Part shown: positions 1 to 33,353 of the stretch, piece after piece
How the letters are laid out: each line of letters opens with the position of its first letter
Numbering within the stretch: the stretch's first letter is position 1
Source of the DNA: Candidatus Wolfebacteria bacterium GW2011_GWB1_47_1
GTDB taxonomy: Bacteria > Patescibacteriota > Minisyncoccia > UBA6257 > UBA9933
DNA: 64,000 bases
NCBI GenBank assembly: GCA_001029635.1
Contig: CP011209.1
Span: 286,866 to 350,865, forward strand
Direction of reading: 5' to 3'
Notes under the pieces: generated by a model
Database searches by the model: none
Seen by the model: the letters and a program-made list of their open reading frames with translations, nothing else
What the model was told of the DNA's origin: nothing
Program-made: the position numbers and the translations under genes

Positions 1-1
1 G

Positions 2-1078
2 GCTGTTGTTTGGGAAACTGATTTTGAAGATGTGGCTGACTGGTCTGCACCTAGGATATCAAATGGTTTTCCTAATACTTGGACGGGCAATCCATCAAGA
101 ACCCTAGATCCCCCCAAAAAGATGAATGGGCAGTGGTTGCACCCCAGTTCATGGGTCAGAACTTCGCCTTCAACTCTTGCAGTTTCTCAAGGCCCAATGG
201 CTACTATTGGAGCGGGACAAGGTAGAGAAAGCTCAAGAGGTTTGACTTACAATTTTGAATCAGGCAAGGGTAATCCTACATATAGTACCGGGTGGGCTGG
301 AGGCAGTCCTCTTACGATGTACTTCGGCGAAGCGGGATATCCTGAGCTTTGGGTGGAGATGTGGGTGAAATATCCAAGTGATATGGATTGGTGGGATGGG
401 TCTGATATTAATTATTCCGGTATAACGAAGGCTTTTTATATTGCCAGGTTTAATGGCGAGTTGACCGTTTCAACATCCTTGGCGGATGATCATTCGGTTG
501 AGACTAGGCCTACACACCCTGCGTGGCTGCCACATATGGGAAGCTTTTATTCTAGCAGGCCTTATTTTATGCAGTATTACAACCGTTCGCAAACTTCAAA
601 TGGAACTCCTGAAGTTTATGATGAAACCGTGGATGCTTGGTACAATAATAGCAGTTATTATCCTTATCAGAATATTCTCTTAAATAATCGTTATACGTAC
701 GCACTACCCTCCAGTAATCCTACCGTTGATACTATCAGAATGGATGGACAATGGCATAAATATACCTATCATGTAAAAATGAATTCCGCACCAGGCGTAG
801 CAGATGGAATTCAAGAGGTTAGTTTGGATGACGTGCGCATGTTTCGCAAGACAAACATGGCATTCATCTTGGATGGTGGTAGTGTTGAAAATGGTTGGAA
901 CTATATTGAATTAATGGACAATCATCATGTAGCTTCGCATATGTACACTGAAAATGTCAGTTACCCCGTGCAAATCGATGATGTGGTGATAAGCACAAAT
1001 TACATCGGTCCAGATTATATAGTGGGCGGGGTTGATATGATTGCTCCTGCCGCACCAACTGGATTAGGGGTGGAATAA
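2..1078 (+). CDS. Secreted beta-jelly-roll family protein carrying the C-terminal APAAPTGLGVE tag (5' partial; the gene starts upstream of the window)
   Basis: Frame is open from nt 2 (AVVWETDFEDVADWS...) and is near-identical to the start of paralog 8653..9768. Ends ...GGVDMIAPAAPTGLGVE*. The last 38 nt lie in a 167-bp block identical to 9741..9897. Confidence 0.7.
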   Translation, partial: AVVWETDFEDVADWSAPRISNGFPNTWTGNPSRTLDPPKKMNGQWLHPSSWVRTSPSTLAVSQGPMATIGAGQGRESSRGLTYNFESGKGNPTYSTGWAGGSPLTMYFGEAGYPELWVEMWVKYPSDMDWWDGSDINYSGITKAFYIARFNGELTVSTSLADDHSVETRPTHPAWLPHMGSFYSSRPYFMQYYNRSQTSNGTPEVYDETVDAWYNNSSYYPYQNILLNNRYTYALPSSNPTVDTIRMDGQWHKYTYHVKMNSAPGVADGIQEVSLDDVRMFRKTNMAFILDGGSVENGWNYIELMDNHHVASHMYTENVSYPVQIDDVVISTNYIGPDYIVGGVDMIAPAAPTGLGVE

Positions 1079-1207
1079 TTGGATGGGCGTTAAAATAGGT
1101 GTCCAGATAGACGCCTTAATTATGCAAAAACAAATTCTTAAAATCTTTTTCTTTAGCGCGATATTTTTTGCAGTGCCTAATTCTTCCCAGGCCACGATTA
1201 TTTTTGA
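1041..1207 (+). repeat. 167-bp segment 100% identical to 9741-9897 (tag codons, stop, 4-bp spacer, signal-peptide codons of the next gene)
   Basis: Direct comparison shows identity at an offset of 8700 nt. Divergence resumes at 1208 / 9898. Confidence 0.85.
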
Positions 1208-1842
1208 GGATGATTTTGATGCGCAAGCGGATTGGCAACCAACTTGTTTGGTTTGCGGTAAAAATGAGGATGGATATAATGGCGGAGGCGACTTGTCGGG
1301 GACACCTATTAATTGGAGTTATTGGAGAAATGATGAATATTGGAATCCTGCGACTGGAGATCCGACCAAACAGCCGACTTTGAAAATCTCAACCGATCAA
1401 TATAGTGGTCAAGGTGGAAAATCTTTGCAAGTTTGGAATGAATCCAACAATGGACATAGTGGCGACGGTTGGGGAGCTGACGGCCAATTGGCTAAATATC
1501 TTGGCGGTGAATTTGATGATATTTTTCTGCAAATGAAAATAAAAATGTCGCCAACTTTTCAATTTAAACGGAATCATTAAATTTTGGCAAAATGGCAACC
1601 TTCTGTATGAGAGAAATGATATCGAGTGGGTTGGCGCTCAGGGTCAGGTTGGCGTGGGTTGGAATATGGTTTCATTGGGTGGTAATGCTTTCAATCTTTT
1701 TTCTGATACGGCAAATAAAGCTGAGCAATGGTATGCACTGGATGACGTGGTAGTGAGCACGGAATATCTGGGACCTGGTTATGTTATTGGAAGTTTGGAT
1801 GCAACAGCTCCTGCCTCGCCAACAGGACTGAGTGTGGAATAA
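1083..1842 (+). pseudogene. Short frameshifted member of the secreted tag family
   Basis: Frame 0 encodes a signal peptide plus ATIIFEDDFDAQADW (1083..1580). Frame +1 continues ...NGIIKFWQNGNLLYERNDIEWVGAQ... and ends ATAPASPTGLSVE* (..1842). A single-base indel near 1560-1575 is inferred. The probable true ATG is 1122. Confidence 0.55.
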
Positions 1843-1908
1843 AAAAGTTCATAAGGTTTATAAAGTTTATGAAGTTCGTAAGGCAGAATACAAAATACGA
1901 TATACGAA

Positions 1909-3012
1909 ATGCTAACAAAAATGCAAAAACAAATTTTCAAAATCTTTTTCTTTCTTGCAGTATTTTTTATGCTGCCTAATTTTTCCCAGGCCGCAATTAT
2001 TTTTGAGGATAATTTTGATTCTCGAGACGATTGGAGCGTGCCCTATAATGATCTGGATCAGACTTGCAATAGGGAGGTGGGATGTACCGATGTTCCTGAC
2101 GGGTATTATGGTTATTATATTTCGCATTCAGTGATAACTCCCGCGACAGGAAACGGTTTGCATCTTGATAATATCAATAAAAGAGGTAATTCCGGCAAGG
2201 GTGTTACTTTTTGGGATCAAACTGATGGAACTGGCAATTGGGCGTCTGGAATGCAAATAGGTCTGGATTTTCCGCCACAAAATGAAATATACGTTCAGTA
2301 TTGGATCAAGATGCAACCGAATTATTCATATTACAAAGGAACCTATGCATCAATGCTGCGTAAAATGAATCACATTAGTCATTATTTATATAATGGTAAG
2401 CCGTTCACATTTTTCAGCGACGGAGGTTTTTTCCCAACAACCGTAAATCAAATCAGGTTTGCCAATGCAGGCAATGCGAATATTCAGAATTTCTTTTTTA
2501 TCCGGCCTGACCCGAGTTATAGCGGAACGCAGCCAGTTCCAATTATAACCAGAGGGATAAAGGACAGCACCAATACTGGGATATATAATTATTTTGATCT
2601 GCCTTCGGATGGACTGCCGATAGGAAATTGGGAGGGAACCGGCACCGAATATAATTCCCTGGGTATGTTTGCTGACGGGCAATGGCATTTGCTGGGATAT
2701 TATTTGAAAAACAACAGTGCGCCAGGAGTAGCTGATGGAACATATAAATTCTGGTATGACGGTAATATTCAGATTGATGCGACTGGCTTCATGTTTAGAG
2801 AAGCGTCTTCGACCTTGCCGGATGATATTTGGAACTTCTTGCACATCGGCGGGAATGCAATCAATCCATTTTTGGGAGCAGGAATTTCAGGTGAGCAGTG
2901 GTATGCAGTTGATGACGTGGCAGTGAGCACGGAATATTTAGGACCCGATTATATTATTGGAAGTTTGGATGCAACAGCTCCGGCCTCGCCAAGTGGATTG
3001 AGTGTGGAATGA
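1909..3012 (+). CDS. Secreted tag-family protein (jelly-roll/lectin-like core)
   Basis: Signal peptide MQKQIFKIFFFLAVFFMLPNFSQA, then AIIFEDNFD. Conserved WH..Y..KNNSAPGVADG and C-terminal tag ATAPASPSGLSVE*. Confidence 0.75.
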   Translation: MLTKMQKQIFKIFFFLAVFFMLPNFSQAAIIFEDNFDSRDDWSVPYNDLDQTCNREVGCTDVPDGYYGYYISHSVITPATGNGLHLDNINKRGNSGKGVTFWDQTDGTGNWASGMQIGLDFPPQNEIYVQYWIKMQPNYSYYKGTYASMLRKMNHISHYLYNGKPFTFFSDGGFFPTTVNQIRFANAGNANIQNFFFIRPDPSYSGTQPVPIITRGIKDSTNTGIYNYFDLPSDGLPIGNWEGTGTEYNSLGMFADGQWHLLGYYLKNNSAPGVADGTYKFWYDGNIQIDATGFMFREASSTLPDDIWNFLHIGGNAINPFLGAGISGEQWYAVDDVAVSTEYLGPDYIIGSLDATAPASPSGLSVE

Positions 3013-3064
3013 CTCAAGTATAAAGTATTTGGTATTATGTATGATGTATAAATACAAAAGATGT
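3013..3064 (+). repeat. Conserved 3'UTR element of the tag family (copy after gene 3)
   Basis: ctcaagtataaagtatttggtattatgtatgatgtataaatacaaaagatgt. Near-identical copies at 5213-5264 and 10853-10906, and a divergent one at 12063-12118. Confidence 0.7.
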
Positions 3065-3261
3065 AGAATATATAAAAGTTTATAAGGTAGGATGCAAAAT
3101 ACAAAGATACAAGATACGGAATACTTGATAATAAATACCGGGTTCAAAATATCACTAAAAAGTGGTATAATTGAACATATAGAAATTGATTTGTTACTTA
3201 ACATGTTACGTAACTCGTCTTAACTAAAGTCGTGCCAAGGCAGGCATGCTACGTAACAAAA

Positions 3262-5181
3262 ATGCAAAAACAAATACTAAAATTATTATTCCTGTCGGTA
3301 TTTTTTTTAATGCCACTTTTTGTCAGTGCTGATGTCAACACGATTATTCCTGATCCTGCCAATGTGACTGCATGCGGCACGCTTAATCAAGCCGGCGCAA
3401 CTTATGTTTTGCAGAATGATGTCAGTTCCGAAGGGAGCTGCTTTGCGATTGTGGCCAGTGGAATAACTCTGGATCTGAACGGTCATACTGTGACTTATGA
3501 CAATGGAACGCCGATAAATATTATGAATGGAAGCTTTGAGGATGAATTGGCTGGGTCTTGGGACACGGTTAATGCGCAAAATTTCTTGAGGTCTGCTGGA
3601 ACATATGTCAGTCCGGTTTCTGTGTATGCTGGATCGTACGCGCTAAAAGCTATTACTCCGACTCCGGATCAAGTCGTTACTTCACTTGGCACGGTGACGC
3701 TGGCTCCAAATACGCGCTATAGTCTGTCGGGAATGGTCTACAATCGGGTCAGTGACAACATCTTAATGTCAATTGAATTTACCGACACCATGAAAGCTAT
3801 CCAGACTGGAATCACGGATAGGGGATTTCAATATATAACATATGAATTCGTAACTGGAGACAGTGAAGAGACATACAATATTGCATTAAAAGTGACGGGC
3901 GCCGCCGCGGTCGGCACGGGCGCGGTTTATTTTGATGATATCAAGATTCAGCGCAATCGATTGGCAGGAGTTATGGTTGGTCCTGTGGAATGGCGAGTTG
4001 CATGGCAATCGCGCGGGTTTGATATAAAGAATTATGGAGGCGCTAATAATACCACAGTTAAGGACGGCAGCATAATACAAGGCAGTGGAAAAAGTGACTG
4101 GTCACACGCCTTAGCGAGCGAAAGCAACAGCGTTTCCGGTCACACATTCAGCGGACTGAATATCACAACAAACGGCGCAAATTCCTCAGCTATTTTGATG
4201 GATAGTTTGCAGAATGGAGAAATAAAATACAATACTTTGGCTGCTAATATGCCTGCGATTAAGTCAAGAGATCAACTGGATGGAGCTGTTTTGAGAGCGG
4301 ATGGATATAATAGTTTTATACACGATAATGTCATCACAAATGGTGTTCAAGGTGGCATTTTGGCTGGCACTGCGGTCGGTCAACTTCCGCAAGAAATTTA
4401 TAACAACAACATCACTCTGCAAGGAAGATATACTAATGGTTTTGCGATTTCTGGGAATAAAAGCATTATAAGAAATAATACTATTAATTGCGGAAGCGGT
4501 AATAATTCTTGTCGAGGCATCTTTATCGGGTCTGAATCCGAAGTATTCGATAATATTGTAGAAGTTCAAGATATACCCCGCAATCAGGAATACAATGGTT
4601 GTCAGGGGTATGGAACATATGGCATTCAGATGGAGTCTGCTGAAAACAGCGATGTTTATGGAAATGTCGTTACGGCAAATTCGCCAAATGAATGCCCTGC
4701 CACTGCTTTTCGCGCCAACCCGCAAGACGGATCAATAGCTTCTATCAATAATTTGATTCATCACAATACTTTCATTGCCTATGCTTCGGGTAGTGCCAGG
4801 GCAACGTCCCTTAAGTTATCAGGTTGTGATAACTCGATGATTTCAATTTATAGCAACACCTTCAGAACAAACAGGCGATGGATTTATGCTGAATTTGATG
4901 GCATGGTCGATGGATTGCGCTTGGTTAACAACAGATGGGAGACTTTCGGATCAATTGATGAGCCTTTTTACCCGTTTGAAAATTTTGTGTGGGATGGAAG
5001 TTTCGTTAAGGATATGGTGTTTGAAAATAATGTTTATGGGGCGGGAGATAAAGAAAGATTTGAATCTGAATTTTTTAGAAAAACTACTGTTTGGCCGGAA
5101 ATAGAAACCCTTTCGAATTTCTCTGTCATATTTTCAGATGTGACAGCGCCAGCCTCGCCAACAGGTCTCGGCGTAATGTAA
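3262..5181 (+). CDS. Secreted tag-family protein with a CBM4/9-like module and parallel beta-helix repeats
   Basis: ORF track 3232..5181; the family signal peptide MQKQILKLLFL begins at 3262. NGSFEDELAGSWD is CBM-like. Repeated N.IT.N.I beta-helix motifs. Tail DVTAPASPTGLGVM*. Confidence 0.7.
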   Translation: MQKQILKLLFLSVFFLMPLFVSADVNTIIPDPANVTACGTLNQAGATYVLQNDVSSEGSCFAIVASGITLDLNGHTVTYDNGTPINIMNGSFEDELAGSWDTVNAQNFLRSAGTYVSPVSVYAGSYALKAITPTPDQVVTSLGTVTLAPNTRYSLSGMVYNRVSDNILMSIEFTDTMKAIQTGITDRGFQYITYEFVTGDSEETYNIALKVTGAAAVGTGAVYFDDIKIQRNRLAGVMVGPVEWRVAWQSRGFDIKNYGGANNTTVKDGSIIQGSGKSDWSHALASESNSVSGHTFSGLNITTNGANSSAILMDSLQNGEIKYNTLAANMPAIKSRDQLDGAVLRADGYNSFIHDNVITNGVQGGILAGTAVGQLPQEIYNNNITLQGRYTNGFAISGNKSIIRNNTINCGSGNNSCRGIFIGSESEVFDNIVEVQDIPRNQEYNGCQGYGTYGIQMESAENSDVYGNVVTANSPNECPATAFRANPQDGSIASINNLIHHNTFIAYASGSARATSLKLSGCDNSMISIYSNTFRTNRRWIYAEFDGMVDGLRLVNNRWETFGSIDEPFYPFENFVWDGSFVKDMVFENNVYGAGDKERFESEFFRKTTVWPEIETLSNFSVIFSDVTAPASPTGLGVM

Positions 5182-5212
5182 ATGAAGACGGAGCGGGCTG
5201 AGTGTGGAATGA

Positions 5213-5264
5213 CTCAAGTATAAAGTATTTAGTATTGTGTATAATGTATAAGTACAAAAGATGT
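5213..5264 (+). repeat. Conserved 3'UTR element (copy after gene 4), preceded by a vestigial second tag
   Basis: 5195-5212 gggctgagtgtggaatga (GLSVE*) is identical to the end of gene 3, out of frame and 13 nt after the real stop. Confidence 0.7.
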
Positions 5265-5331
5265 AAAATGCAATAAAAGCTTAAGAAGCTTAATACAAGA
5301 TACTAAATACAAGATACGAAATACTAACAAA

Positions 5332-6885
5332 ATGCAAAAACAAATTCTAAAATTTTTCTTCCTACTTGCAATATTTTTCTTGCTACCAAATTTTGCAAGT
5401 GCAGCTGATTTTCATATTGGGACAGGGCAACCATACGCAACTATTGGTTCCTTCGCGTGGTCTTCATTGGTCGCAGGAGATACAGTTTATATCCATGCCA
5501 GGGATAATCAGGAACCATATTACGAACATTTATATGTAAGTGCGGCATTGCAAGGAACCGAGCAGAATCCAATCAATATAATTGGTGTCAATGATGGATC
5601 AGGAAATCAGCCAATTCTCGATGGTAGAAATTCCACAACAGGTCCCAATTTTGATGCTTATGGTGATTCACAATACCATTCTCGGTTGGGTATTGTTTTT
5701 TTTGGTCCCAGTGAAACAGCAGGGTATGGTTCAGCGCCGCAATGGATAACGTTATCAAATATTAAAATTCAAAATTATAGAAATGTTTCTACTACTGATG
5801 AGATTGGGGTGACGACAAATGATGTTAGCGGCAGTTGTGTTTATTTGCAAGGAGGACAACAAATAACATTGGACAAATTAACGATCACGGGATGCGCCGA
5901 TGGTATTTTTGGCAAAGATAACGATTTTCCTGTTAGGTATATAACACTACAAAATTCATCTATTTATGATAATGGTGTTGTTGATGATTATCTTTATCAT
6001 AATATTTATACCGAAGTTAAATATCTGACAATGCAGTATAATCATTTTGGACCTACTGTTAATGGTTCTCCTGGAAACAACATTAAGGATAGAAGTGTGG
6101 GTTTCGTATTTCGTTATAATTGGGTTGACGGTGGAGCGCACCTTTTGGATATTGTGGAATGTCAAGATAACTGCGCAAATCATACTTCTGATCCTGCCTG
6201 GGATGACGTTTTTGTCTACGGTAACATCTTTTATGCTGGTCCTGGCTCTGCCTCTCAACTTTTTCATCTCGGAACAGGTGATACTGGAGCCTTAGCATCT
6301 TCTTGGCGCAAAAATTTATATTTTTATAATAATACTATTGATTATGAGAGAAATCAGAGCGACGTGTATTATATGAACATATTCCAACTTAGTGGAGATC
6401 AGCAAACTGTTTATTTTGACAATAATATATTTTTTGCGCAGCCGGAAACGGTTGGCCAGGCGCACTCTGACGTGTATTTGCAATACGATGGTTCAGCTGC
6501 TCCGTCTGCATATGGCAATATGATTATTGGAAAAAACTGGATTTCTCCTGATTGGAGTGTGACCAAGCCAGGTGTCACGCCAACTGGTATTATTTCTGGA
6601 GCGTTAAATATAATTTCACCGGCTGGAAATGATCCGTATTTTATTGATTCCGCTACGGGTGATTATCACCTCATGTCATCCTCTGGTGCAATTGGTGTTG
6701 CAAGTTCTTTACCAGCCTTGATTAGTTCAGGAAATGCGCTTGGGTATGATTTTACACCAGTAAAACAATACATAAACCATCAATTATTTGAAAATAGACT
6801 AAACATTTCAGATCTGGGCGCTTATCAATATGCTATTGATGATATTGTTGCCCCTGCCGCGCCAATGGGATTGGGTGTGATATAG
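5332..6885 (+). CDS. Secreted tag-family protein with a right-handed beta-helix (pectate-lyase-like fold)
   Basis: Signal peptide MQKQILKFFFLLAIFFLLPNFASA. NIKIQNY, TITGCADGIF and LQNSSIYDNG beta-helix repeats. Tail DDIVAPAAPMGLGVI*. Confidence 0.7.
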   Translation: MQKQILKFFFLLAIFFLLPNFASAADFHIGTGQPYATIGSFAWSSLVAGDTVYIHARDNQEPYYEHLYVSAALQGTEQNPINIIGVNDGSGNQPILDGRNSTTGPNFDAYGDSQYHSRLGIVFFGPSETAGYGSAPQWITLSNIKIQNYRNVSTTDEIGVTTNDVSGSCVYLQGGQQITLDKLTITGCADGIFGKDNDFPVRYITLQNSSIYDNGVVDDYLYHNIYTEVKYLTMQYNHFGPTVNGSPGNNIKDRSVGFVFRYNWVDGGAHLLDIVECQDNCANHTSDPAWDDVFVYGNIFYAGPGSASQLFHLGTGDTGALASSWRKNLYFYNNTIDYERNQSDVYYMNIFQLSGDQQTVYFDNNIFFAQPETVGQAHSDVYLQYDGSAAPSAYGNMIIGKNWISPDWSVTKPGVTPTGIISGALNIISPAGNDPYFIDSATGDYHLMSSSGAIGVASSLPALISSGNALGYDFTPVKQYINHQLFENRLNISDLGAYQYAIDDIVAPAAPMGLGVI

Positions 6886-6926
6886 GTAGGTGAGTATTTA
6901 AATAAGTATTTAGATTTATTATTGAG

Positions 6927-8648
6927 ATGCAAAATAAAAACTTAAAATTATATCTTTTCCTTGCGATATTCTTCTTGTTGCCTAATTTTGCGAATGCATT
7001 TGGTAATCCGGTGAGTTTTTATAATATCCAACCGTATACAAAAGGCACAAGTTCGAATTTCCCATTGTATCCAAAATCAACAGCACTGGAGCCGCAAAAG
7101 GGTCAATGTGTTTATGATGAAAATTATGGCAGTGAAGTTTGCAAAGTTGCTGATACCTCTGAATTTACAGTTGGGCAAATAGGGGATGCGGTCAGGCCTC
7201 CCTATAGTCGCTGGAGAATAGATAGTAGCGATGGAAGCAAATATTTCTTGCTTAAGGATGGTGAAACTCCCGCCGGCAGTGGAAAAGGTCAGACGGTTAT
7301 TTTTAATTCTGCGGATGATTCGATTCATAAGATAATAACTGAAATAAATAGTGGTGAGCCGCGCGAACTTCGTTGGGACTATTCAGGCACCAAGCAGAAT
7401 TCTATGTATTATGTTTCTGGATGCACCTTTTATGAATATGATATTGTTTCAGGTTTAAGTACTATTGTGCACAATTTTGGAAATGATTTTGCAAATTGTG
7501 GGAGAATTTTAAACGACGTGGAAGGCGATTCGTCCAGTGATTCCCGCTATTGGGCGTTTATGATTCAGAATCCTTATGATGGCAGTAAATATCCTATGCG
7601 TGCGATTGTTACTTATGACAAGCAAACCGATTCTATTTTAGGAACTTTGGATTATGCAGCCTATGCCGCAGCTGGGGGCACTTCAGAAAGTATGCCCACC
7701 CCTAATATGGTGGATATTTCACCGTTAGGAAATAAGGTTGTTTTGTTGAATGGGCGCTCATGGGGAGCGGTTGTGACAATTACTGGACCTTGGACAGATG
7801 AAGGTGTTGGAGTTTGGAGTTCTCCATATCAGTCCCTTACTAACGGAAATAATGCTTTTAATTGGGTTAAGGTCGATGGCGTTATATTGACTAGTAAAAC
7901 TCCTATAGATGGTGATAGACAATGGACGCGCGTAAGTGCTGAGAATAAATTGTATGTGAGATTGACTGGCGGAGAGAGTCCTGCTTCGCATAGCATCACA
8001 CTGGAATATGGGAAACGTCCTAATGATTTGAATTCAATTTTTGATGGTCCTCATGCTTTTGCTTTTGATTTTTCTAGTCCGGTGAAAGTTTGCAACGACG
8101 AAACTCACGGTGGATGGGCTTTTGATTTGAATGGTAATGAAGTGTATGTCTGTCAAGTCAATAATGGAAATTGGGCAAACGCTGATGGAGACACTATTGC
8201 TTATACTGATATTTTAACTGGGCAAACGAATACTATCATGTATCATAGCGACATTGGATGGGACGTAGGAGGATGGCACTTTGGTAGATTTTACAATAGT
8301 AACATACGTGGTTGGGTGTATATGACAAGTTATAGCAACAGTGATACAAGTTTAAGTTGGATGCGCAATCAGGCGTTTATGCTGGAGCTAAAACCATTCG
8401 CAGAACACCCCAGAGTTTGGCGCATTGCAGATACGCACAATAATTATCCTGGAGCTGCTGCTTATAAGCGTGAAGCATTTTCGCCGATAACACGTGATGG
8501 TTTGAAGATTTATTGGGGCTCGGATTGGCCTGGAGGTAATGGAACAGTGGATACATATTCAGTGCGTCTTCCTGATAATTGGTGGAATGTTCTTAATGGA
8601 AATGATGAAATTGCACCCGCTGCGCCAAGTGGTTTAGCAGTTCAATAA
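6927..8648 (+). CDS. Secreted tag-family protein with a large unknown core
   Basis: Signal peptide MQNKNLKLYLFLAIFFLLPNFANA. Tail DEIAPAAPSGLAVQ*. Confidence 0.65.
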   Translation: MQNKNLKLYLFLAIFFLLPNFANAFGNPVSFYNIQPYTKGTSSNFPLYPKSTALEPQKGQCVYDENYGSEVCKVADTSEFTVGQIGDAVRPPYSRWRIDSSDGSKYFLLKDGETPAGSGKGQTVIFNSADDSIHKIITEINSGEPRELRWDYSGTKQNSMYYVSGCTFYEYDIVSGLSTIVHNFGNDFANCGRILNDVEGDSSSDSRYWAFMIQNPYDGSKYPMRAIVTYDKQTDSILGTLDYAAYAAAGGTSESMPTPNMVDISPLGNKVVLLNGRSWGAVVTITGPWTDEGVGVWSSPYQSLTNGNNAFNWVKVDGVILTSKTPIDGDRQWTRVSAENKLYVRLTGGESPASHSITLEYGKRPNDLNSIFDGPHAFAFDFSSPVKVCNDETHGGWAFDLNGNEVYVCQVNNGNWANADGDTIAYTDILTGQTNTIMYHSDIGWDVGGWHFGRFYNSNIRGWVYMTSYSNSDTSLSWMRNQAFMLELKPFAEHPRVWRIADTHNNYPGAAAYKREAFSPITRDGLKIYWGSDWPGGNGTVDTYSVRLPDNWWNVLNGNDEIAPAAPSGLAVQ

Positions 8649-8652
8649 AATT

Positions 8653-9768
8653 ATGAAATATAAATACTGCAAAACTTTTTTCTTGGCGGCAATATTTTTC
8701 ATGCTGCCTAATTTTGCAAATGCGGCTGTTGTTTGGGAAACTGATTTTGAAGATGCGGCTGACTGGTCTGCGGTGAGACCGTCTCCTTCGGGAATATCCT
8801 TTCCGAATTCTTGGACGCTAAAGCCGGGAGGGCCAAGCGTGGAACCTCCCAAGAAAAATGACGGTTCCTGGCTTCATCCCAATAGTTGGAGCAGAATTGC
8901 GCCTTCGGTCCTTACGAATAACATTACCCCTATGGCAACTATTGGATCCGGACAGGGCAAAGACAATTCCAGGGGCATGACATACAACGTGGAAGTTTCC
9001 GGTGTTTCTGGTACTTGGAGTGGCGGAAGCCCGCTCACGATGTATTTGGGAGCTGATGGATATCCTGAGCTGTATGTTTCCATGTGGGTAAAATATGATT
9101 CAGAGTTCACTTGGCTACCTGCTAGCCCAGCTAGCGGTTCCCAGCAAAAATTAGTTTATATTTCCAGGCTTAATGTGCCGATAAGCGCTACTGCCGATGC
9201 TGATAACCATTCCAACGGACCGCTACATCCGTCCTGGCTTCCGCATTGGTATAATTATATTTCAGTTTCTCCGTACTATGCCTTTTATATGAACAGGTCA
9301 CAGCAATCCAATGGTTCCTTAGTGTCATATGATCAAACCAAGGACATGTGGTCAATACATCCTTCCTATTACCCGCTCAATGCTCCATTTAAATGGCCGG
9401 AATCCAACCCTCATATTGTGAGTGTGCAATCCGACGGGTGGTGGCACCATTACGAATATCACATTAAAATGAATTCCGCTCCCGGCGTAGCTGATGGCGT
9501 GCAGGAAGTTTGGTTGGATGGCATCAAGAGGTTTTCCAAAAGTGACATGCCTTTTGTACTGGATGGAGGAAGCACTGCAACCGGATGGAACTATGTGGAA
9601 CTTTTTGATAATACCAATATTCTTTCCCATCCTGCATCTGAAAATGTGACGTATCCTATATATATCGATGATGTAGCGATCGGCACCACGTATGCCGGTC
9701 AAAACTATGTTATTGGAGGTATTGATGTGATTGCTCCTGCCGCACCAACTGGATTAGGGGTGGAATAA
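8653..9768 (+). CDS. Secreted tag-family protein (jelly-roll), full-length paralog of the partial gene at the window start
   Basis: Signal peptide MKYKYCKTFFLAAIFFMLPNFANA plus AVVWETDFEDAADW. Tail IDVIAPAAPTGLGVE*. Sits 4 bp after the previous gene. Confidence 0.75.
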   Translation: MKYKYCKTFFLAAIFFMLPNFANAAVVWETDFEDAADWSAVRPSPSGISFPNSWTLKPGGPSVEPPKKNDGSWLHPNSWSRIAPSVLTNNITPMATIGSGQGKDNSRGMTYNVEVSGVSGTWSGGSPLTMYLGADGYPELYVSMWVKYDSEFTWLPASPASGSQQKLVYISRLNVPISATADADNHSNGPLHPSWLPHWYNYISVSPYYAFYMNRSQQSNGSLVSYDQTKDMWSIHPSYYPLNAPFKWPESNPHIVSVQSDGWWHHYEYHIKMNSAPGVADGVQEVWLDGIKRFSKSDMPFVLDGGSTATGWNYVELFDNTNILSHPASENVTYPIYIDDVAIGTTYAGQNYVIGGIDVIAPAAPTGLGVE

Positions 9769-9811
9769 TTGGATGGGCGTTAAAATAGGTGTCCAGATAG
9801 ACGCCTTAATT

Positions 9812-10852
9812 ATGCAAAAACAAATTCTTAAAATCTTTTTCTTTAGCGCGATATTTTTTGCAGTGCCTAATTCTTCCCAGGCCACGATTATTTTTGAAGA
9901 TAACTTCGATGATTCTCCTGATTGGCAGTCGCAGCAAACTGTTGCCAAATCTGTTGGTGGGAATGATCGGGCATGGCCAGCGACTTATGTCGATGCCTGC
10001 TCAAGCGCGTGTCCCCCTCAAAGATGGACGGCTTACAGAGCGAGTGCTTCTTATTTTACTGATACTCCCGGCAATGACACGTATGTTCTCAATACAGATG
10101 GTGCTCGTGGCGGCAGTGGAAAAGGCATCACGCTTAATGTTGAATCAACTGGCAGCTATGGCGATTGGGCGGGCGGATCTCTTGATTTGTCCTTAGGCTC
10201 AGTTGGATACCAAGAACTTTTTGTGAAGTACTGGCTTAAGTATGATTCAAATTGGCTTTGGACAAATCCTGGCAATACTCAACACGGTCAGCAAAAATTG
10301 ATCCGAATTTCCAGGTTTAGCGGAGACATAAATGATTATAATAATCATAATCCACAAATGTTTTTCACACCCACAGAAAATGGCCCTTCTTGGATGCCAG
10401 ATTGGTATTATAATAAGTCCTTCCCCCCAGCTTCATTTTTTTCAAGTGAGTTTTTTAACACTCAGGCGAATGGCTCAATAGGATACGGGCCGACTCAGAC
10501 ATTTGCATCACTCGTTTGGCCGTCTGACGGCGGGTGGCATAGCTATGAATTCAGGACAAAAATGAATAGTGCACCTGGTGCTGCGAATGGCGAATGGGAA
10601 ATCTGGATTGACGGTCAAAGCACCCCGGACAAGCATCAAGTGAAAACAGATGTTCTCTGGGTTGATTCAAATGGTTCAGTAACTCAAGGTTGGAATTATT
10701 TGATGTTTTTGGATAATATCACCGTGGCTCCTGCGCCACTCTCAGAAAAGAAAGAAATGCAGATATATATGGATGATGTGGTAGTGAGCACGACGCGGTT
10801 ATCTGCTGACATCATTGCTCCTGTCGCACCGAGTGGATTGAATGTGGAATAA
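9812..10852 (+). CDS. Secreted tag-family protein (jelly-roll)
   Basis: ORF track 9773..10852; the signal peptide MQKQILKIFFFSAIFFAVPNSSQA starts at 9812. Its 5' end is DNA-identical to gene 1122... Tail ADIIAPVAPSGLNVE*. Confidence 0.75.
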   Translation: MQKQILKIFFFSAIFFAVPNSSQATIIFEDNFDDSPDWQSQQTVAKSVGGNDRAWPATYVDACSSACPPQRWTAYRASASYFTDTPGNDTYVLNTDGARGGSGKGITLNVESTGSYGDWAGGSLDLSLGSVGYQELFVKYWLKYDSNWLWTNPGNTQHGQQKLIRISRFSGDINDYNNHNPQMFFTPTENGPSWMPDWYYNKSFPPASFFSSEFFNTQANGSIGYGPTQTFASLVWPSDGGWHSYEFRTKMNSAPGAANGEWEIWIDGQSTPDKHQVKTDVLWVDSNGSVTQGWNYLMFLDNITVAPAPLSEKKEMQIYMDDVVVSTTRLSADIIAPVAPSGLNVE

Positions 10853-10906
10853 CTCAAGTATAAAGTATTTGGTATTACGTATGATGTATAAATACAAAAA
10901 GATGTG
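10853..10906 (+). repeat. Conserved 3'UTR element (copy after gene 8)
   Basis: ctcaagtataaagtatttggtattacgtatgatgtataaatacaaaaagatgt. Confidence 0.7.
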
Positions 10907-11000
10907 AAATACATAAAAGTTTATAAAGTTCGTAATGTTTATAAAGCAGAATACTAAATACTAAATACGAAATACTAATAAAAAGTGGTATAATTAAGAA

Positions 11001-12062
11001 ATGATAAAACAAATGCTGAAAACTTTTCTTTTTCTCGCGATGTTTTTCTTGCTGCCAAATTTTTCCCAGGCCGCAATTATCTTTGAGGATAATTTCAATG
11101 ATTCTCCCGATTGGCAATCGGCTGAGTCTTATCCGAGCACGAATGCCGGCTGGCCAAACACCTGGAAGGATAAACCAGGTGGTCCAAGTCAGCCCCCTCC
11201 GCAAAACTGGACGGCGTACAGTGCAGCTATCCCAAGATGGGACAGGGGTCCAACTTGGAAATTAGATGCTAGTGGTGCTCGAAATTCCGGAAAGGGTATC
11301 ACTTTTGCAGTTGAGGCTGTGCATACCTGGGCGGGCGGTGGTCTGGATTTATATCTGGGAAACGTTGGATATCAAGAATTATATGTACGGGGATATTACA
11401 AATATGATCCAGTAACTTTTCATTGGCCGACTATAAACAATGAAGGCATTAATAACGGGAATTATCATAAGATTGCCAGGATTTCCAGATATCAACTGGA
11501 GCCATCCTTGGTAAATAATCCGCAGCAATTTTTAGCTCCCAGTTATCAGGCGCCAACTTTCTATCCTGAGGTTGCAGTAAACACGGGCACTGGTTATCAA
11601 AATCCGCCAGATCTCAATGCTGTCCATTTTCTTGGCGCGCGCGTTTTTGATCCTGGCGCTGGCGATGCTTCGGCGGAAGATGTTTATACTCTGCCAATGC
11701 CATCGGATGGTGGTTGGCATAGTTATGAATTTAGGGTAAAGATGAACAGCGCGCCGGGCGTTGCGGATGGCGAATGGGAGGTGTGGGTTGATGATGGCGT
11801 AAATCCTTACCAGCATCATAAGCGGACTGGGCTTGCTTGGATCGGCGCCGATTCAGTAAATGGCCTTTCTCCTGGTTGGAACTGGGTTAATGCTTTGGAT
11901 AATATAACCATAAATCAAACAGGAACCATCTACGAGAACACGGAGATGAAAATATTTCTAGATGATTTTGTGATCAGTGATTCTTTTATTGGTAAGGATT
12001 ATGTGATTGGCACTGCTGATATTACCGCACCTGCCGCACCGACAGGATTAGGGGTGACGTAA
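11001..12062 (+). CDS. Secreted tag-family protein (jelly-roll)
   Basis: Signal peptide plus AIIFEDNFNDSPDWQSAE. WHSYEFRVKMNSAPGVADGEWEVWVDDG. Tail DITAPAAPTGLGVT*. An extended -10 box TGGTATAAT lies at 10985-10993. Confidence 0.75.
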   Translation: MIKQMLKTFLFLAMFFLLPNFSQAAIIFEDNFNDSPDWQSAESYPSTNAGWPNTWKDKPGGPSQPPPQNWTAYSAAIPRWDRGPTWKLDASGARNSGKGITFAVEAVHTWAGGGLDLYLGNVGYQELYVRGYYKYDPVTFHWPTINNEGINNGNYHKIARISRYQLEPSLVNNPQQFLAPSYQAPTFYPEVAVNTGTGYQNPPDLNAVHFLGARVFDPGAGDASAEDVYTLPMPSDGGWHSYEFRVKMNSAPGVADGEWEVWVDDGVNPYQHHKRTGLAWIGADSVNGLSPGWNWVNALDNITINQTGTIYENTEMKIFLDDFVISDSFIGKDYVIGTADITAPAAPTGLGVT

Positions 12063-12150
12063 ATTCATGTATAACGTATTTGGTATTATGTATGAAGTAT
12101 GAATAATATAAAATTCAAGATTTAAATACCTATTTAATACCCAACTAAAA

Positions 12151-13287
12151 ATGCCAAAGCAAACACTAAAAGCTTTTCTTTTTCTAGCGATGTTTTTCTT
12201 GTTGCCTAATTTTTCCCAGGCCGCAATTATTTTTGAGGATAATTTCAATGATTCTCCCGATTGGCAATCGGCCGAATCAAACCCCGGTGATAATGTGGAC
12301 TGGTTCAGTTCTTCTTGGATACGCAATCCATCTGGCCCACCGGAACCTCCCATGCAAAATTGGACTTCATATCGGACAGAAATTCCATTGGGTAACTCAG
12401 TGAAAAGATATATTTTAAGTGAAGAAGGGAAACGTGGAATAAGCGGAAAAGGGGTAACTTATAATGTGGAGAGCAGCGGGACGTGGTCGGGAGGTGGTCT
12501 GGATCTTTATCTTGGAAATACTGGATATCAGGAAATTTTTGTACGCTTTTATTTGCGTTATGATCCCGCGACTTGGGTGTGGGCACTGCGTGAAACTGGT
12601 TTAAATGGGGAAAAGCAGAAACTCATACGCATCTCGAGGTTAAAGGATGAGCCTACGGCCCAAACTGCATGGAATCCTCAGTTGTTTGACACTGCAGCGT
12701 CAGGTGGACATCAGATGCCAGTTTTATATCCGGATGTCAAAGAAAATAACGGCGCTGGTTATAATACCCCATCTGTAAATGGCTTGTATGGTTTGTATCT
12801 TGAATATACCAGGCGCTTTGATCCTGAATATGGAAGCGAATCCCCATCTGAAACAAGATCATTCCCCATGCCGTCTTTAGGATTGAAAAATTTTGTTCCT
12901 CCGACTTCAGGAACTGATTCAAGTACGGATTATTATAAAACTGATGGAGATTGGCATTCCTACGAATTCCGCGTGAAAATGAATAGCGCGCCAGGGGTGG
13001 CTGATGGAGAATGGGAAACTTGGGTTGATGGTGGGGAAAATCCTGCCCAGCATACATTAAAAATCGGAGTAGCTTGGGTTTCATCTGGAGGATCAGTAAG
13101 TCCAGGATGGAACTGGTTTACAGTGCTTGATAATGTGAATACAGCTACCGGTCTGCCAAACGGTACGATTATGAAGATGTACATGGATGATTTTGTAGTC
13201 AGTGATTCCTTTATTGGTAAAGATTATATCATCGGTACAGCTGATATCACCGCACCTGCAGCACCGACAGGGTTGGAGGTAATATAA
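12151..13287 (+). CDS. Secreted tag-family protein (jelly-roll)
   Basis: Close paralog of 11001..12062. Tail DITAPAAPTGLEVI*. Confidence 0.75.
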   Translation: MPKQTLKAFLFLAMFFLLPNFSQAAIIFEDNFNDSPDWQSAESNPGDNVDWFSSSWIRNPSGPPEPPMQNWTSYRTEIPLGNSVKRYILSEEGKRGISGKGVTYNVESSGTWSGGGLDLYLGNTGYQEIFVRFYLRYDPATWVWALRETGLNGEKQKLIRISRLKDEPTAQTAWNPQLFDTAASGGHQMPVLYPDVKENNGAGYNTPSVNGLYGLYLEYTRRFDPEYGSESPSETRSFPMPSLGLKNFVPPTSGTDSSTDYYKTDGDWHSYEFRVKMNSAPGVADGEWETWVDGGENPAQHTLKIGVAWVSSGGSVSPGWNWFTVLDNVNTATGLPNGTIMKMYMDDFVVSDSFIGKDYIIGTADITAPAAPTGLEVI

Positions 13288-13330
13288 TTAGATGGGTATT
13301 TAAATAAGTATCCAGATAGACGCCTTAATT

Positions 13331-14491: not shown

Positions 14492-14670
14492 GGGTTATAT
14501 GGTATACTTATCCCAAATCCTATATCAAGGAAAACAAAGACCCACGTGTGTATGGCTCTGAATGGTTGCTTCTGAATCGTGGCGAGTTGACTGGCAAAAC
14601 CGACCTAAGAAATCTACTATGTATAGTTGATTTAGGGTCGGTTTTTACATTATATGAACATAAAAAATAA

Positions 14671-15033: not shown

Positions 15034-15078
15034 TCGTGGGCGGGATCAATAATACAAACACTATAAAACGCAATACAT

Positions 15079-18610: not shown

Positions 18611-18713
18611 TAATGGACAAAATACAGTGTAAAAACTGAGTGATGTATTATGGGAAACAAAAAACGAAATAGGAAAAATGAAAAAAAGCCCCGCATGTGC
18701 GGGGCTAGAGGAG

Positions 18714-33327: not shown

Positions 33328-33353
33328 AAAACCCGCATTGCTGCGGGGCTGTG

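What the first reader, a model, noticed from the sequence alone, without database searches (positions are those of the whole stretch)
3013..5264. Conserved intergenic module and a vestigial duplicated tag show cassette-style recombination among family members
After several family stops there is the same ~52-nt element (CTCAAGTATAAAGTATTTGGTATTATGTATGATGTATAAATACAAAAGATGT). It is followed by AT-rich degenerate octamer repeats (AATACNAA / AAGATACG) and in places an extended -10 box (TGGTATAAT at 3160 and 10985). After gene 4, the true tag plus stop (GLGVM*, 5179-5181) is followed 13 nt later by an out-of-frame relic GGGCTGAGTGTGGAATGA (GLSVE*), identical to the end of gene 3, and then the 3'UTR element. 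This looks like a recombination junction. Conserved 5' leaders plus conserved 3' tag and UTR flanking variable cores is the architecture used for gene conversion or shuffling in variable surface-protein systems.
Basis: seen in the sequence. Interest (0 to 1): 0.55.

Follow-up and report, generated by a model that had tools for sequence, protein, structure and literature searches.

The report
Recombination scar in secreted-enzyme gene array
In a tiny groundwater bacterium (Candidatus Wolfebacteria), a row of about 15 secreted-enzyme genes share the same start signal, the same short end-tag and the same spacer DNA. The leftover tag after gene 4 is a real scar of past recombination between these genes, and there is no sign of an active gene-switching system.

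Summary
A vestigial tag end (GGGCTGAGTGTGGAATGA, GLSVE*) lies at 5195-5212, 13 nt after gene 4's own stop and out of frame. The 52-nt element follows it directly, and 10 independent assemblies carry it identically.

The window comes from Candidatus Wolfebacteria (CPR). Positions 1-14491 belong to a ~19-kb tandem array of 14 tagged ORFs, one of them the tail of a broken gene. The proteins are secreted and have at least four unrelated cores.

The "52-nt element" is five GTATNNN heptamers. The "octamers" are ATACNNN heptamers. The two arrays can pair as a long weak hairpin placed ahead of the next gene's extended -10 promoter.

Recombination at gene boundaries is well supported:
- a 168-nt perfectly identical tract spans tag, spacer and signal peptide, with ~70% identical flanks;
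- synonymous sites are more alike than expected only at gene termini;
- one orthologue in a sister species has a replaced tail;
- gene 4's tail and flank recur on a different core in that sister species.

Nothing indicates programmed cassette switching. All copies are full-length and cores are saturated at synonymous sites. Assemblies are uniform, and the tag and signal peptide are conserved across CPR lineages, so they are functional.

The most interesting lead is that the tag equals strand A of an Fn3 domain, and neighbouring anchor proteins carry Fn3 domains that lack strand A.

The parts
1040..1207 (+). Gene-conversion tract, copy 1. It covers the last 39 nt of gene 1 (tag plus stop), the 43-nt short spacer, and the signal peptide with the first codons of gene 2.
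   Evidence: 100% identical over 168 nt to 9730-9897, while flanking sequence is ~65-70% identical.
1083..1842 (+). Gene 2, a broken family member. The N-terminal 165 codons run into a stop, and the C-terminal 62 codons with the tag are in another frame. The cause is an internal deletion of about 450 bp.
   Evidence: ORF list and translations. Its 3' part, 1678-1840, is 82% identical to 2848-3010 of gene 3.
1888..1905 (+). ATACNNN heptamer run (3 units) ending 15 nt before the gene 3 start. This spacer has no GTAT arm.
   Evidence: sequence read.
1921..3012 (+). Gene 3, a secreted jelly-roll protein of the polysaccharide-lyase/GH16-like fold. It ends in the tag ...DATAPASPSGLSVE*.
   Evidence: AF2 model with pTM 0.75. 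Foldseek best hits are PL36 and PL14 alginate lyases and GH16 laminarinases. The tag is disordered in the model.
3013..3064 (+). 52-nt element, copy 1. It is five GTATNNN heptamers (3018-3052) starting 5 nt after the stop, and forms the 5' arm of the hairpin.
3107..3138 (+). ATACNNN heptamer run, the 3' arm of the hairpin.
   Evidence: In the RNAfold structure 3014-3128 pair, z = -3.0.
3163..3171 (+). Extended -10 promoter-like box TGGTATAAT ahead of gene 4.
   Evidence: 7 found versus 0.6 expected in the window.
3172..3261 (+). 90-nt leader of gene 4, with direct copies CATGTTACGTAAC (3202-3214) and CATGCTACGTAAC (3245-3257). These are half-sites of the palindrome GTTACGTAGCATGCTACGTAAC seen in leaders of sister species.
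   Evidence: Sequence read; sister-species spacers.
3262..5181 (+). Gene 4, a secreted protein whose homologues match right-handed beta-helix families, 639 aa. Its own tag is ...SDVTAPASPTGLGVM* (the 'M-type' tail).
   Evidence: Homologues at 36-51% identity occur in other lineages (the named ones include Moranbacteria), and 11 of 46 end in the same kind of tag.
5182..5194 (+). 13-nt remnant of the M-type 3' flank (ATGAAGACGGAGC).
   Evidence: Its best match by far is the flank after a gene with a different core in the sister species: L078:12619, ATGAAGACATGGATGG, 9/13 ungapped against at most 5/13 for 24 other junctions.
5195..5212 (+). The relic: the last five codons plus the stop codon (18 nt) of an 'E-type' family member (GLSVE*), out of frame with gene 4.
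   Evidence: 16/18 nt to the end of gene 3. It is the only such extra tag end in the window. Identical in 10 assemblies.
5213..5264 (+). 52-nt element, copy 2 (GTAT heptamers 5218-5252).
5293..5324 (+). ATACNNN heptamer run (5 units) ending 7 nt before the gene 5 start. There is no -10 box here.
   Evidence: Hairpin 5218-5316, z = -5.8.
5332..6885 (+). Gene 5, a secreted beta-helix protein with tag ...APAAPMGLGVI*.
   Evidence: Found as an exact sequence in 39 blocks of the collection.
9730..9897 (+). Gene-conversion tract, copy 2 (end of gene 8653-9768, spacer, start of gene 9812-10852).
10853..10905 (+). 52-nt element, copy 3 (GTAT heptamers 10858-10892).
10951..10975 (+). ATACNNN heptamer run (4 units), the 3' arm.
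   Evidence: Hairpin z = -3.2.
10986..10994 (+). Extended -10 box TGGTATAAT. Exactly 6 nt separate TATAAT from the ATG at 11001, which is the spacing expected for a leaderless mRNA.
   Evidence: Three spacers of a third related population (L084) show the same 6-nt spacing.
12065..12105 (+). Diverged partial copy of the 52-nt element (GTAT heptamers 12069-12103).

Best explanation
SETTING (shown). The region lies in a ~19-kb tandem array in a Candidatus Wolfebacteria genome. The array holds 14 tagged ORFs, one of them the tail of a broken gene, and its first three genes lie upstream of the window. The proteins have at least four unrelated cores: a jelly-roll lyase/glucanase-like fold, beta-helix, a ~470-aa family, and a 573-aa protein. 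All share a Sec signal peptide (MQKQILKIFFF..PNFSQA) and a C-terminal tag, D-x-[TI]-A-P-[AS]-x-P-[TS]-G-L-x-V-x-COOH.

TAG (shown). The tag is the linker plus first beta-strand of an Fn3 domain. It is conserved on homologues from other CPR lineages, so it is a functional module and not a recombination handle.

SPACER UNIT (shown). The long spacers are modular: stop, then five GTATNNN heptamers (the '52-nt element'), a variable loop with 9-mer repeats, then 3-5 ATACNNN heptamers (the 'octamers'), and in the complete form AATAAAAAGTGGTATAAT plus 6 nt plus ATG. The two heptamer arrays are reverse complements and can pair.

SPACER FUNCTION (inferred). The hairpin forms on read-through RNA or on single-stranded DNA. 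It acts as an inter-gene insulator or 3'-end stabiliser just ahead of the next gene's own, probably leaderless, promoter.

RECOMBINATION (shown). Boundary units (tag end, spacer, signal peptide) are alike in DNA, so homologous recombination occasionally copies them between paralogues.

THE RELIC (junction shown; order of events inferred). It is a scar. Gene 4 kept its own 'M-type' tail and 13 nt of its original flank. A deletion or illegitimate join then fused this to the last 18 nt of an 'E-type' family member and its spacer. The simplest history is loss of a whole paralogue that once lay between genes 4 and 5, possibly refreshed later by gene conversion from another spacer copy.

OVERALL. 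The array evolves by ordinary duplication, deletion and boundary conversion over evolutionary time. It is not a programmed switching system.
For: - Organism and array extent.
- Tag on all 14 tagged ORFs of the array and nowhere else in the 64 kb.
- Tag on 11 of 46 gene-4 homologues and on gene-3 homologues from other lineages.
- Gene-3 homologues P0142 and P0143 continue from the tag position into a complete Fn3.
- Heptamer nature of the repeats and their restriction to the array spacers.
- Hairpin folding, z = -3.0 to -5.8. Pairing kept in 96% of cells across 7 copies from two species.
- Complete unit with 6-nt promoter-to-ATG spacing in a third population.
- TGGTATAMT enrichment.
- 168-nt perfect tract.
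- Terminus-specific excess of synonymous identity.
- Replaced tail in an otherwise 95-98% identical orthologue.
- Gene 4 tail and flank homologous to the tail of an unrelated core in the sister species.
- Relic unique in the window and contiguous with a 128-nt, 84% repeat.
- Relic identical in 10 assemblies.
- A second decay product in the same array, the gene 2 pseudogene.
Against: - There is no transcript data, so promoter use, leaderless starts and RNA hairpin formation are inferences.
- Covariation in the hairpin is not significant, because the paired columns are nearly invariant GTAT/ATAC. Pairing could be a by-product of two arrays of protein-binding sites.
- Sequence alone cannot separate the deletion-of-a-paralogue history from replacement of a resident core by gene 4.
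- The homology of the 13-nt stub rests on 8 contiguous bases plus 3 gapped bases.
- Uniformity was tested at the level of assemblies, not reads, and all assemblies come from one aquifer population.
Confidence: 0.7

Rival explanations
1. Programmed cassette recombination. Conserved leaders and tag/UTR modules are recombination handles that let variable cores be swapped into expressed positions at high frequency to vary surface proteins, as in pilE/pilS, vlsE or msp2.
For: Conserved boundary DNA around divergent cores. A perfect 168-nt conversion tract. Tails exchanged between unrelated cores.
Against: There is no expression site with silent, truncated cassettes. All copies but one are complete genes with start codon and signal peptide, and several have their own -10 box. 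Core synonymous sites are saturated, so cores are old and stable. Ten assemblies are identical, and the apparent variants are scaffold gaps. Array content differs between sister species by whole genes, not by mosaic cores. No recombinase gene was seen among the flanking genes that were scanned.
Confidence: 0.07
2. Selection only, with no recombination. The shared ends are kept alike purely because signal peptide, tag and spacer are functional, and the relic arose by a small local tandem duplication (slippage) of gene 4's own tag followed by decay.
For: Tag and signal peptide are conserved in other lineages (the named ones are Moranbacteria). Spacer modules are conserved in sister species.
Against: Selection on protein cannot give 168 identical bases including synonymous sites and spacer, nor the terminus-specific excess of synonymous identity. 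The relic matches the gene 3 end at 16/18 nt, but gene 4's own tag end aligned in register with the relic matches at only 10/21 (my own count from the sequence). The relic is also continuous with the spacer repeat. An orthologue tail has been replaced.
Confidence: 0.1
3. Mobile spacer element. The GTAT/ATAC inverted-array unit is a small non-autonomous mobile element (MITE- or REP-like) that carries the last codons of a tag at its left end and inserts after family genes. The relic would then be the element's own end, not a stump of a lost gene.
For: Inverted-repeat architecture. Multiple copies per genome. GTAT-heptamer arrays, 16 of 63 followed by an ATAC array, occur in many CPR and Bacteroidota genomes.
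Against: No target-site duplications. Copies in the window occur only inside the array. The bases between the stop and the first heptamer vary (CTCAA, TGCAT, TTGAT, TACAT), and arm lengths vary as expected from slippage. No transposase or RAYT gene was seen in the window genes that were scanned.
Confidence: 0.08
4. Assembly artefact. The relic and repeated modules come from mis-joined reads of similar paralogues.
For: Some 2015 draft assemblies do show missing stretches at the repeated junctions.
Against: Those stretches are collapsed scaffold gaps, not alternative sequence; NNNNNN is still present in one of them. The relic region is identical in all ten assemblies from different samples and pipelines, and the same proteins are also recorded on a 984,447-bp contig.
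Confidence: 0.02

Closest known systems
Tandem multigene families evolving by birth-and-death with boundary gene conversion (concerted evolution of paralogue ends)
   Same: Duplicated genes in a head-to-tail array. Conversion tracts have sharp edges. Pseudogenes and deletion scars are present. Gene content differs between sister species.
   Different: Here conversion is concentrated on the unit of tag end, spacer and signal peptide, while cores of unrelated folds sit between the same ends.
Antigenic-variation cassette systems (Neisseria pilE/pilS, Borrelia vlsE, Anaplasma msp2); from my own knowledge
   Same: Conserved flanks around variable cores, and gene conversion as the mechanism.
   Different: No single expression site, no silent truncated cassettes, no population heterogeneity. 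The cores are different enzyme folds, not variants of one antigen.
Intergenic heptamer direct repeats: TAACTGA repeats of Beggiatoaceae, Cyanobacteria and Bacteroidetes (PMC4679880), and cyanobacterial STRR heptamers (the latter from my own knowledge)
   Same: Tandem 7-nt units in intergenic DNA, often ending a few bases before a start codon. [quoted passage not shown]
   Different: The unit is different (GTATNNN/ATACNNN, with only 4 fixed bases). Two arrays lie in inverted orientation and form a hairpin. Here they are tied to one gene family.
REP/BIME-type intergenic palindromes of enterobacteria (from my own knowledge)
   Same: Repeated imperfect palindromes between genes of one transcription unit, thought to stabilise upstream mRNA and to act as recombination substrates.
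   Different: REPs are short and GC-rich, have a GTAG head, and are associated with RAYT transposases. These are long, AU-rich and built of heptamers, and no RAYT was seen.
Cellulosome dockerin-cohesin system (from my own knowledge; papers listed)
   Same: Many polysaccharide-degrading enzymes of unrelated folds carry one common C-terminal module. Anchor proteins are encoded nearby. A sister species has an Fn3-dockerin protein.
   Different: The common module here is only ~14 residues, a single beta-strand, not a ~60-70-residue Ca-binding dockerin. Binding to a partner has not been tested.
Donor-strand complementation (chaperone-usher pili; archaeal threads and cannulae, PMC9715654, PMC12518558)
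   Same: An Ig-like domain lacking an edge strand, and a terminal peptide on another protein that could supply it.
   Different: It has not been described for Fn3 domains or for enzyme docking, and here it is only inferred from sequence and single-chain models.
C-terminal sorting signals (LPXTG/sortase, PEP-CTERM/exosortase, T9SS CTD); from my own knowledge
   Same: A conserved C-terminal signature on many secreted proteins of one genome.
   Different: No hydrophobic helix or basic tail follows the motif, and there is no ~80-aa CTD. There is no NCBIfam or Pfam hit.

Membership tests
Programmed antigenic/phase-variation cassette system | One expressed locus plus promoterless or truncated silent cassettes | tested here: not met
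   13 of the 14 genes are complete ORFs with start codon and signal peptide, and the only truncated one is a frameshifted pseudogene. Several have their own TGGTATAAT box.
Programmed antigenic/phase-variation cassette system | Conserved repeats flanking variable cores that serve as recombination sites | tested here: met
   DNA similarity between paralogues is confined to gene ends and spacers. A 168-nt perfect tract is present.
Programmed antigenic/phase-variation cassette system | Sequence heterogeneity at the locus within a population | tested here: not met
   Ten assemblies are 99.7-100% identical wherever they hold sequence, and the gaps are scaffold artefacts. Read-level data could not be tested.
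Intrinsic (Rho-independent) terminator | GC-rich stem-loop followed by a U tract | tested here: not met
   The scan finds none in the array spacers. The hairpin is AU-rich and is followed by an A-rich tract.
Structured RNA family (Rfam) | Match to a curated covariance model | tested here: not met
   No hit in the window at gathering score. No relevant hit at E <= 1 on the whole array.
Conserved RNA/DNA hairpin | Base pairs maintained by compensatory changes | tested here: inconclusive
   96% of cells are paired in 7 copies, but only 1 pair has double changes and the score does not exceed shuffles.
Intergenic heptamer repeats (TAACTGA/STRR-like class) | Tandem 7-nt units in intergenic DNA close to start codons | tested here: met
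   Period-7 runs of 3-5 units. Two of the four ATAC runs end 7 and 15 nt before an ATG (5293-5324 and 1888-1905), and the other two end just upstream of a -10 box.
Intergenic heptamer repeats (TAACTGA/STRR-like class) | Same repeat unit as the described classes | tested here: not met
   The unit is GTATNNN/ATACNNN, not TAACTGA.
Fibronectin type III domain (for the tag) | Complete seven-strand beta-sandwich recognised by PF00041 | tested here: not met
   No Pfam hit on tagged proteins. The tag is ~14 residues and disordered in the model.
Fibronectin type III domain (for the tag) | Homology of the tag to the linker plus strand A of an Fn3 | tested here: met
   Gene-3 homologues at 58-67% identity run from the same alignment position into a PF00041 domain.
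Sortase/exosortase-type C-terminal sorting signal | Motif followed by a hydrophobic helix and a basic tail | tested here: not met
   Proteins end 2-3 residues after G-L-x-V. No NCBIfam match.
Dockerin module | Duplicated Ca-binding repeat recognised by PF00404 | tested here: not met
   Absent from the tagged proteins that were scanned. PF00404 is found only on an Fn3 protein of the sister species.
Polysaccharide lyase / GH16-like jelly-roll enzymes (for the commonest core) | Concanavalin-like beta-jelly-roll fold | tested here: met
   AF2 model with pTM 0.75. Foldseek E = 3e-8 to PL36 alginate lyase, with further hits to PL14, PL13 and GH16.
Polysaccharide lyase / GH16-like jelly-roll enzymes (for the commonest core) | Catalytic residues and activity | not tested
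   Sequence identity to solved enzymes is ~10% and there is no sequence-level PDB hit.

The most novel reading that the evidence does not exclude
The shared C-terminal tag is a docking peptide. It would supply the missing first strand (A) of the incomplete Fn3 domains on neighbouring anchor proteins: ORF 14671-15033 (membrane helix plus Fn3 without strand A), ORF 15079-16785 (Fn3 without strand A plus a peptidoglycan-binding domain), and an Fn3-dockerin protein in a sister species. A dozen enzymes of unrelated folds would thus be tethered to the cell surface, giving a cellulosome-like assembly built on strand complementation in a CPR bacterium. The same ~130-nt leader precedes the enzyme operons and the anchor operon, which would co-regulate them.
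Probability: 0.3. Interest if true: 0.8.

Novelty: new variant of a known kind. Interest (0 to 1): 0.45.

Why it matters
As recombination biology the finding is ordinary. A tandem paralogue array shows boundary gene conversion, a pseudogene and a deletion scar, and it is not a switching system.

Its value lies in what the conserved ends reveal. CPR bacteria have tiny genomes and are thought to live attached to other cells. Here ~2% of a 0.98-Mb genome is spent on a battery of secreted polysaccharide-degrading enzymes, and all carry one 14-residue end-tag that equals a single Fn3 strand. Next to them lie anchor proteins whose Fn3 lacks that strand.

If the tag docks enzymes to the surface, that would be a new and very compact protein-tethering principle, and a natural analogue of engineered split-domain tags.

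The paired GTAT/ATAC heptamer arrays and the fixed 6-nt promoter-to-ATG spacing also give concrete, testable handles on how transcription units are delimited in CPR genomes. Almost nothing is known about this experimentally.

Tried and rejected
- Rfam on the window (gathering score) and on the whole array (E <= 1): nothing for the spacer modules or for the 130-nt leader.
- Pfam and NCBIfam on ten array proteins: no family for the tag or for the jelly-roll core. Profile search of PDB sequences: no hit.
- Genome-collection scan with a degenerate GTAT-array pattern: 63 hits, of which only two (L025, L052) are homologous modules. The rest showed that GTAT heptamer arrays are common in CPR and Bacteroidota but are unrelated loci.
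- Metagenome scan for the gene 4 tail/flank junction (GCGTAATGTARATGAAGAC): 4 chance hits and no relatives, so there are no intermediate states of the relic.
- Apparent strain variants (50-140-nt deletions, and a 713-aa fusion gene) in four 2015 draft genomes: rejected as collapsed scaffold gaps. Three assemblies share the same right edge in the perfect repeat, and one still holds NNNNNN.
- Intrinsic terminators in the spacers: none.
- Covariation test of the hairpin: uninformative.
- Reading the relic as a tandem duplication of gene 4's own tag: rejected. Aligned in register, the two tag ends share only 10/21 nt.
- Treating the 13-nt stub as the start of a lost gene: no family member starts with ATGAAGAC, so this is not claimed.
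- Literature searches for heptamer repeats in Patescibacteria, for a Wolfebacteria Fn3 tag, for CPR cellulosomes and for Fn3 donor-strand docking: no prior description found.
Full report
WHAT IS THERE. The window begins inside a tandem array of + strand genes that runs to 14491. Fetching the same locus from public assemblies shows three more array genes upstream, directly after a Mur ligase gene. Window position equals L002 position minus 4669. The proteins are recorded as Candidatus Wolfebacteria (CPR/Parcubacteria, Rifle aquifer) and occur on a 984,447-bp contig. Flanking genes are housekeeping: CdaA, RecO, a class II aminoacyl-tRNA synthetase, a DNA polymerase III subunit, an M50 peptidase and TruB. 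All 14 tagged ORFs of the array, one of them the tail of broken gene 2, end in D-x-[TI]-A-P-[AS]-x-P-[TS]-G-L-x-V-x-stop. Nothing else in the 64 kb does. Most of them begin with a signal peptide such as MQKQILKIFFF..PNFSQA.

The cores are unrelated. Eight genes are a ~360-aa family with no Pfam or NCBIfam match. Its AF2 model (pTM 0.75) is a beta-jelly roll closest to PL36 and PL14 alginate lyases, heparin lyase I and GH16 glucanases. Gene 5 gives a weak right-handed beta-helix match, and gene 4's homologues carry beta-helix families. The remaining genes belong to other families. Gene 2 (1083-1842) is broken by an internal deletion and frameshift.

CHECK OF THE OBSERVATION. The 52-nt element is exact at 3013-3064. 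It is 48/52 at 5213-5264, has one substitution plus one inserted base at 10853-10905, and is partial at 12065-12105. Gene 4 stops at 5179-5181. Thirteen bases later, in another frame, lies GGGCTGAGTGTGGAATGA (5195-5212). It encodes GLSVE* like the end of gene 3 and matches it at 16 of 18 bases, both differences synonymous. It is the only extra tag end in the window. It forms the left edge of a 128-nt repeat (2999-3125 versus 5199-5325, 84%). TGGTATAAT lies at 3163 and 10986, and the motif TGGTATAMT is 11-fold enriched in the window. The relic region is identical in ten assemblies from different samples and pipelines. The one real correction concerns the repeats.

THE SPACER MODULE. The '52-nt element' is five tandem GTATNNN heptamers beginning 5 nt after the stop. 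The 'octamers' are 3-5 ATACNNN heptamers, so the period is 7. In the 64 kb such runs occur only in the four long spacers of the array, always GTAT first and ATAC second, and almost never in shuffles. ATAC is the reverse complement of GTAT, so the two arrays can pair. Each full spacer folds into one long imperfect hairpin, with z = -3.0, -5.8 and -3.2. In seven copies from two species, 96% of the 16 consensus pairs are kept. Almost all paired columns are invariant, however, so covariation is uninformative. No intrinsic terminator and no Rfam family match the spacers.

A sister species and a third related population carry the same module after their tagged genes. The sister species is GCA_964609855.1, labelled Bdellovibrionales but carrying an array gene whose core is 95-98% identical to gene 1 of the window. 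The third population is represented by L083 and L084. These give the complete unit: stop, GTAT arm, loop with 9-mer repeats, ATAC arm, AATAAAAAGTGGTATAAT, exactly 6 nt, ATG. That spacing places the expected transcription start on the A of the start codon, so these genes are probably leaderless. Window copy 3 (10853-11000) is of this type. Copy 1 has a 90-nt leader inserted before gene 4. Copy 2 and the spacer before gene 3 have lost the -10 box.

A genome-wide pattern scan shows that GTAT-heptamer arrays are widespread in CPR and Bacteroidota intergenic DNA. Sixteen of 63 are followed by an ATAC array, none is preceded by one, and many lie next to a start codon on the opposite strand (by my reading of the flanks). 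The closest described things are the intergenic TAACTGA heptamer repeats of Beggiatoaceae, Cyanobacteria and Bacteroidetes. [quoted passage not shown]

IS THERE RECOMBINATION? Yes, at evolutionary scale. Four lines of evidence support it.
1. DNA similarity between paralogues is confined to the last ~100 nt of a gene, the spacer and the first ~100 nt of the next gene.
2. Positions 1040-1207 and 9730-9897 are identical for 168 nt, covering tag, stop, spacer, signal peptide and first codons, while the flanks are only ~65-70% identical. With 30% divergence, a chance run of that length is about 0.7^168.
3. At aligned identical amino acids, the fraction using the same codon equals the codon-usage expectation in cores (0.42 versus 0.41). 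It exceeds expectation at N-termini (0.66 versus 0.47) and C-termini (0.51 versus 0.34). Cores are therefore anciently diverged, and termini have been copied more recently.
4. The sister-species orthologue of gene 1 is 95-98% identical from the signal peptide to about position 990. It then loses similarity for the last ~85 nt and the spacer, so a tail was replaced after the species split.

THE RELIC. Gene 4's own end (SDVTAPASPTGLGVM*, then ATGAAGACGGAGC) is homologous to the end of a sister-species gene with an unrelated ~470-aa core (SDVISPASPTGLSVM*, then ATGAAGACATGGATGG). This is by far the best of 25 junction comparisons. So gene 4 carries an 'M-type' tail with 13 nt of its native flank, joined abruptly to the last 18 nt of an 'E-type' tag and its spacer. 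In the sister species an M-tail gene is followed by its own spacer and then an E-tail gene with the GTAT module. One deletion, running from 13 nt past the M stop into the next gene's tag, would produce exactly the window's structure. I regard loss of a paralogue between genes 4 and 5 as the simplest history. Replacement of a resident core by gene 4 cannot be excluded. The sister-species flank (GGTGGGATGAATC) weakly resembles the relic (TGTGGAATGACTC), so the junction may be old and later refreshed by conversion. This last point is speculation.

WHY THE CASSETTE-SYSTEM READING FAILS.
- There is no expression site with silent cassettes, and cores are not mosaics.
- Assemblies are uniform. The 50-140-nt 'deletions' in four 2015 drafts, including a predicted 713-aa fusion, share edges in the perfect repeat. 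One retains NNNNNN, so they are collapsed scaffold gaps.
- The shared ends are functional and old. Eleven of 46 gene-4 homologues (36-51% identity; the named ones include Moranbacteria) end in the same tag, and P0003 and P0004 carry an MQ[KR]Q-type signal peptide. Gene-3 homologues behave likewise.

WHAT THE TAG IS. Gene-3 homologues P0142 and P0143 (67% and 58% identity) continue from the tag position into a complete Fn3 domain, and P0143 then ends in another tag. The tag is thus the linker plus strand A of an Fn3. In the gene 3 model it is disordered. Immediately downstream of the array, ORF 14671-15033 (membrane helix plus Fn3) and ORF 15079-16785 have a first Fn3 that begins at strand B. 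ORF 15079-16785 consists of a signal peptide, Fn3, two CHB_HEX_C domains, a second Fn3 and a PG_binding_1 domain. Pfam matches both first Fn3 domains only from profile position 9. The AF2 model of the small protein has six strands and no strand A. The 16 homologues of the small protein all start the domain at G-x-x-x-L-[STD]-W, mostly straight after an N-terminal hydrophobic stretch. In the sister species the second such protein is Fn3 plus dockerin. The same promoter and ~130-nt leader precede two enzyme operons and the anchor operon. These facts suggest, but do not show, docking by strand complementation. I give this as the novel case at 0.3.

VERDICT. The relic is a genuine recombination or deletion scar in a paralogue array whose boundaries undergo gene conversion. 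It does not indicate a programmed shuffling system. The case is a new variant of a known kind. Its interest lies mainly in the undescribed modules it exposed: the Fn3-strand tag, the paired heptamer arrays and the leaderless promoter unit.

Noticed in passing
window 14497-14655; also L002 224-375 and L002 3246-3400 (upstream of the window): Three copies share an extended -10 box (TATGGTATAMT) followed by a ~130-nt leader that ends in a strong intrinsic terminator (AAAACCGACCTAAG...TTTAGGGTCGGTTTTT). The two L002 copies are 98% identical; the window copy is 84-88% identical to them. They precede two operons of tagged enzymes and the Fn3 anchor operon. There is no Rfam match at E <= 1. This is a candidate riboswitch or attenuator.
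   Followed up: partly
window 14671-15033 and 15079-16785; L085 1427-2335: These anchor-type proteins have a first Fn3 domain lacking strand A. One is membrane helix plus Fn3. The other is signal peptide, Fn3, two CHB_HEX_C domains, Fn3 and PG_binding_1. In the sister species the second such protein is Fn3 plus Dockerin_1 (PF00404, 23.9 bits).
   Followed up: partly
window 10989-11003; L084 spacers before the genes at 1041, 2282 and 4701: Exactly 6 nt lie between the TATAAT of the extended -10 box and the ATG. This is conserved in several genes of two populations and implies leaderless mRNAs.
   Followed up: partly
window 3202-3214 and 3245-3257; L052 and L084 leaders: The palindrome GTTACGTAGCATGCTACGTAAC, or its half-sites CATG[TC]TACGTAAC, lies downstream of TGGTATAAT promoters in the leaders of some array genes in three populations. 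It may be an operator or a 5' hairpin.
   Followed up: no
window 1083-1842: Gene 2 is a pseudogene. Its first 165 codons run into a stop, and its tail (1654-1842) with the tag is in another frame after an internal deletion of about 450 bp. It is conserved in every assembly that holds sequence across it.
   Followed up: partly
window 1079-1121, 6886-6926, 9769-9811, 13288-13330: There is a second, short (~41-43 nt) spacer type with the motif GGGTATTTAAATAAGTATCC / GGGCGTTAAAATAGGTGTCC. A similar motif follows the MacB gene in L083.
   Followed up: no
L025, L052, L076, L078, L085 (GCA_964609855.1): The assembly is labelled 'uncultured Bdellovibrionales', but its contigs carry Wolfebacteria-type arrays with an array gene whose core is 95-98% identical in nucleotides to gene 1 of the window. 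It is probably misclassified or mis-binned. Its arrays sit at two other genomic sites, after NDK and before the ATP synthase operon.
   Followed up: partly
L074 4194-5447; L075 119-3990 and 9213-10466; L083 4283-5536: In Moranbacteria and in the third related population, tagged genes lie next to MacB/FtsX-type ABC transporter genes, with a YknX-like adaptor and an ATPase in L075. This may point to a link with export.
   Followed up: no
protein P0171: This small protein has a signal peptide, an Fn3 without strand A, and a C-terminal KPSAPSGCSIK tag. That is the arrangement expected for head-to-tail polymerisation by strand exchange.
   Followed up: no
window 15407-15908: A 250-nt tandem duplication (89% identity) lies inside ORF 15079-16785 and corresponds to its two CHB_HEX_C/Fn3_assoc domains.
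   Followed up: no
window 18682-18706, 23358-23382, 33326-33350 and others: GC-rich hairpins of the type AAAAAAGCCCCGCATGTGCGGGGCT recur across the rest of the window (repeat finder family D11). They look like ordinary intrinsic terminators and contrast with the AU-rich array hairpins.
   Followed up: no
window 1-16000 versus 16000-64000: The array is lower in G+C (39-44%) than the rest of the window (45-52%).
   Followed up: no
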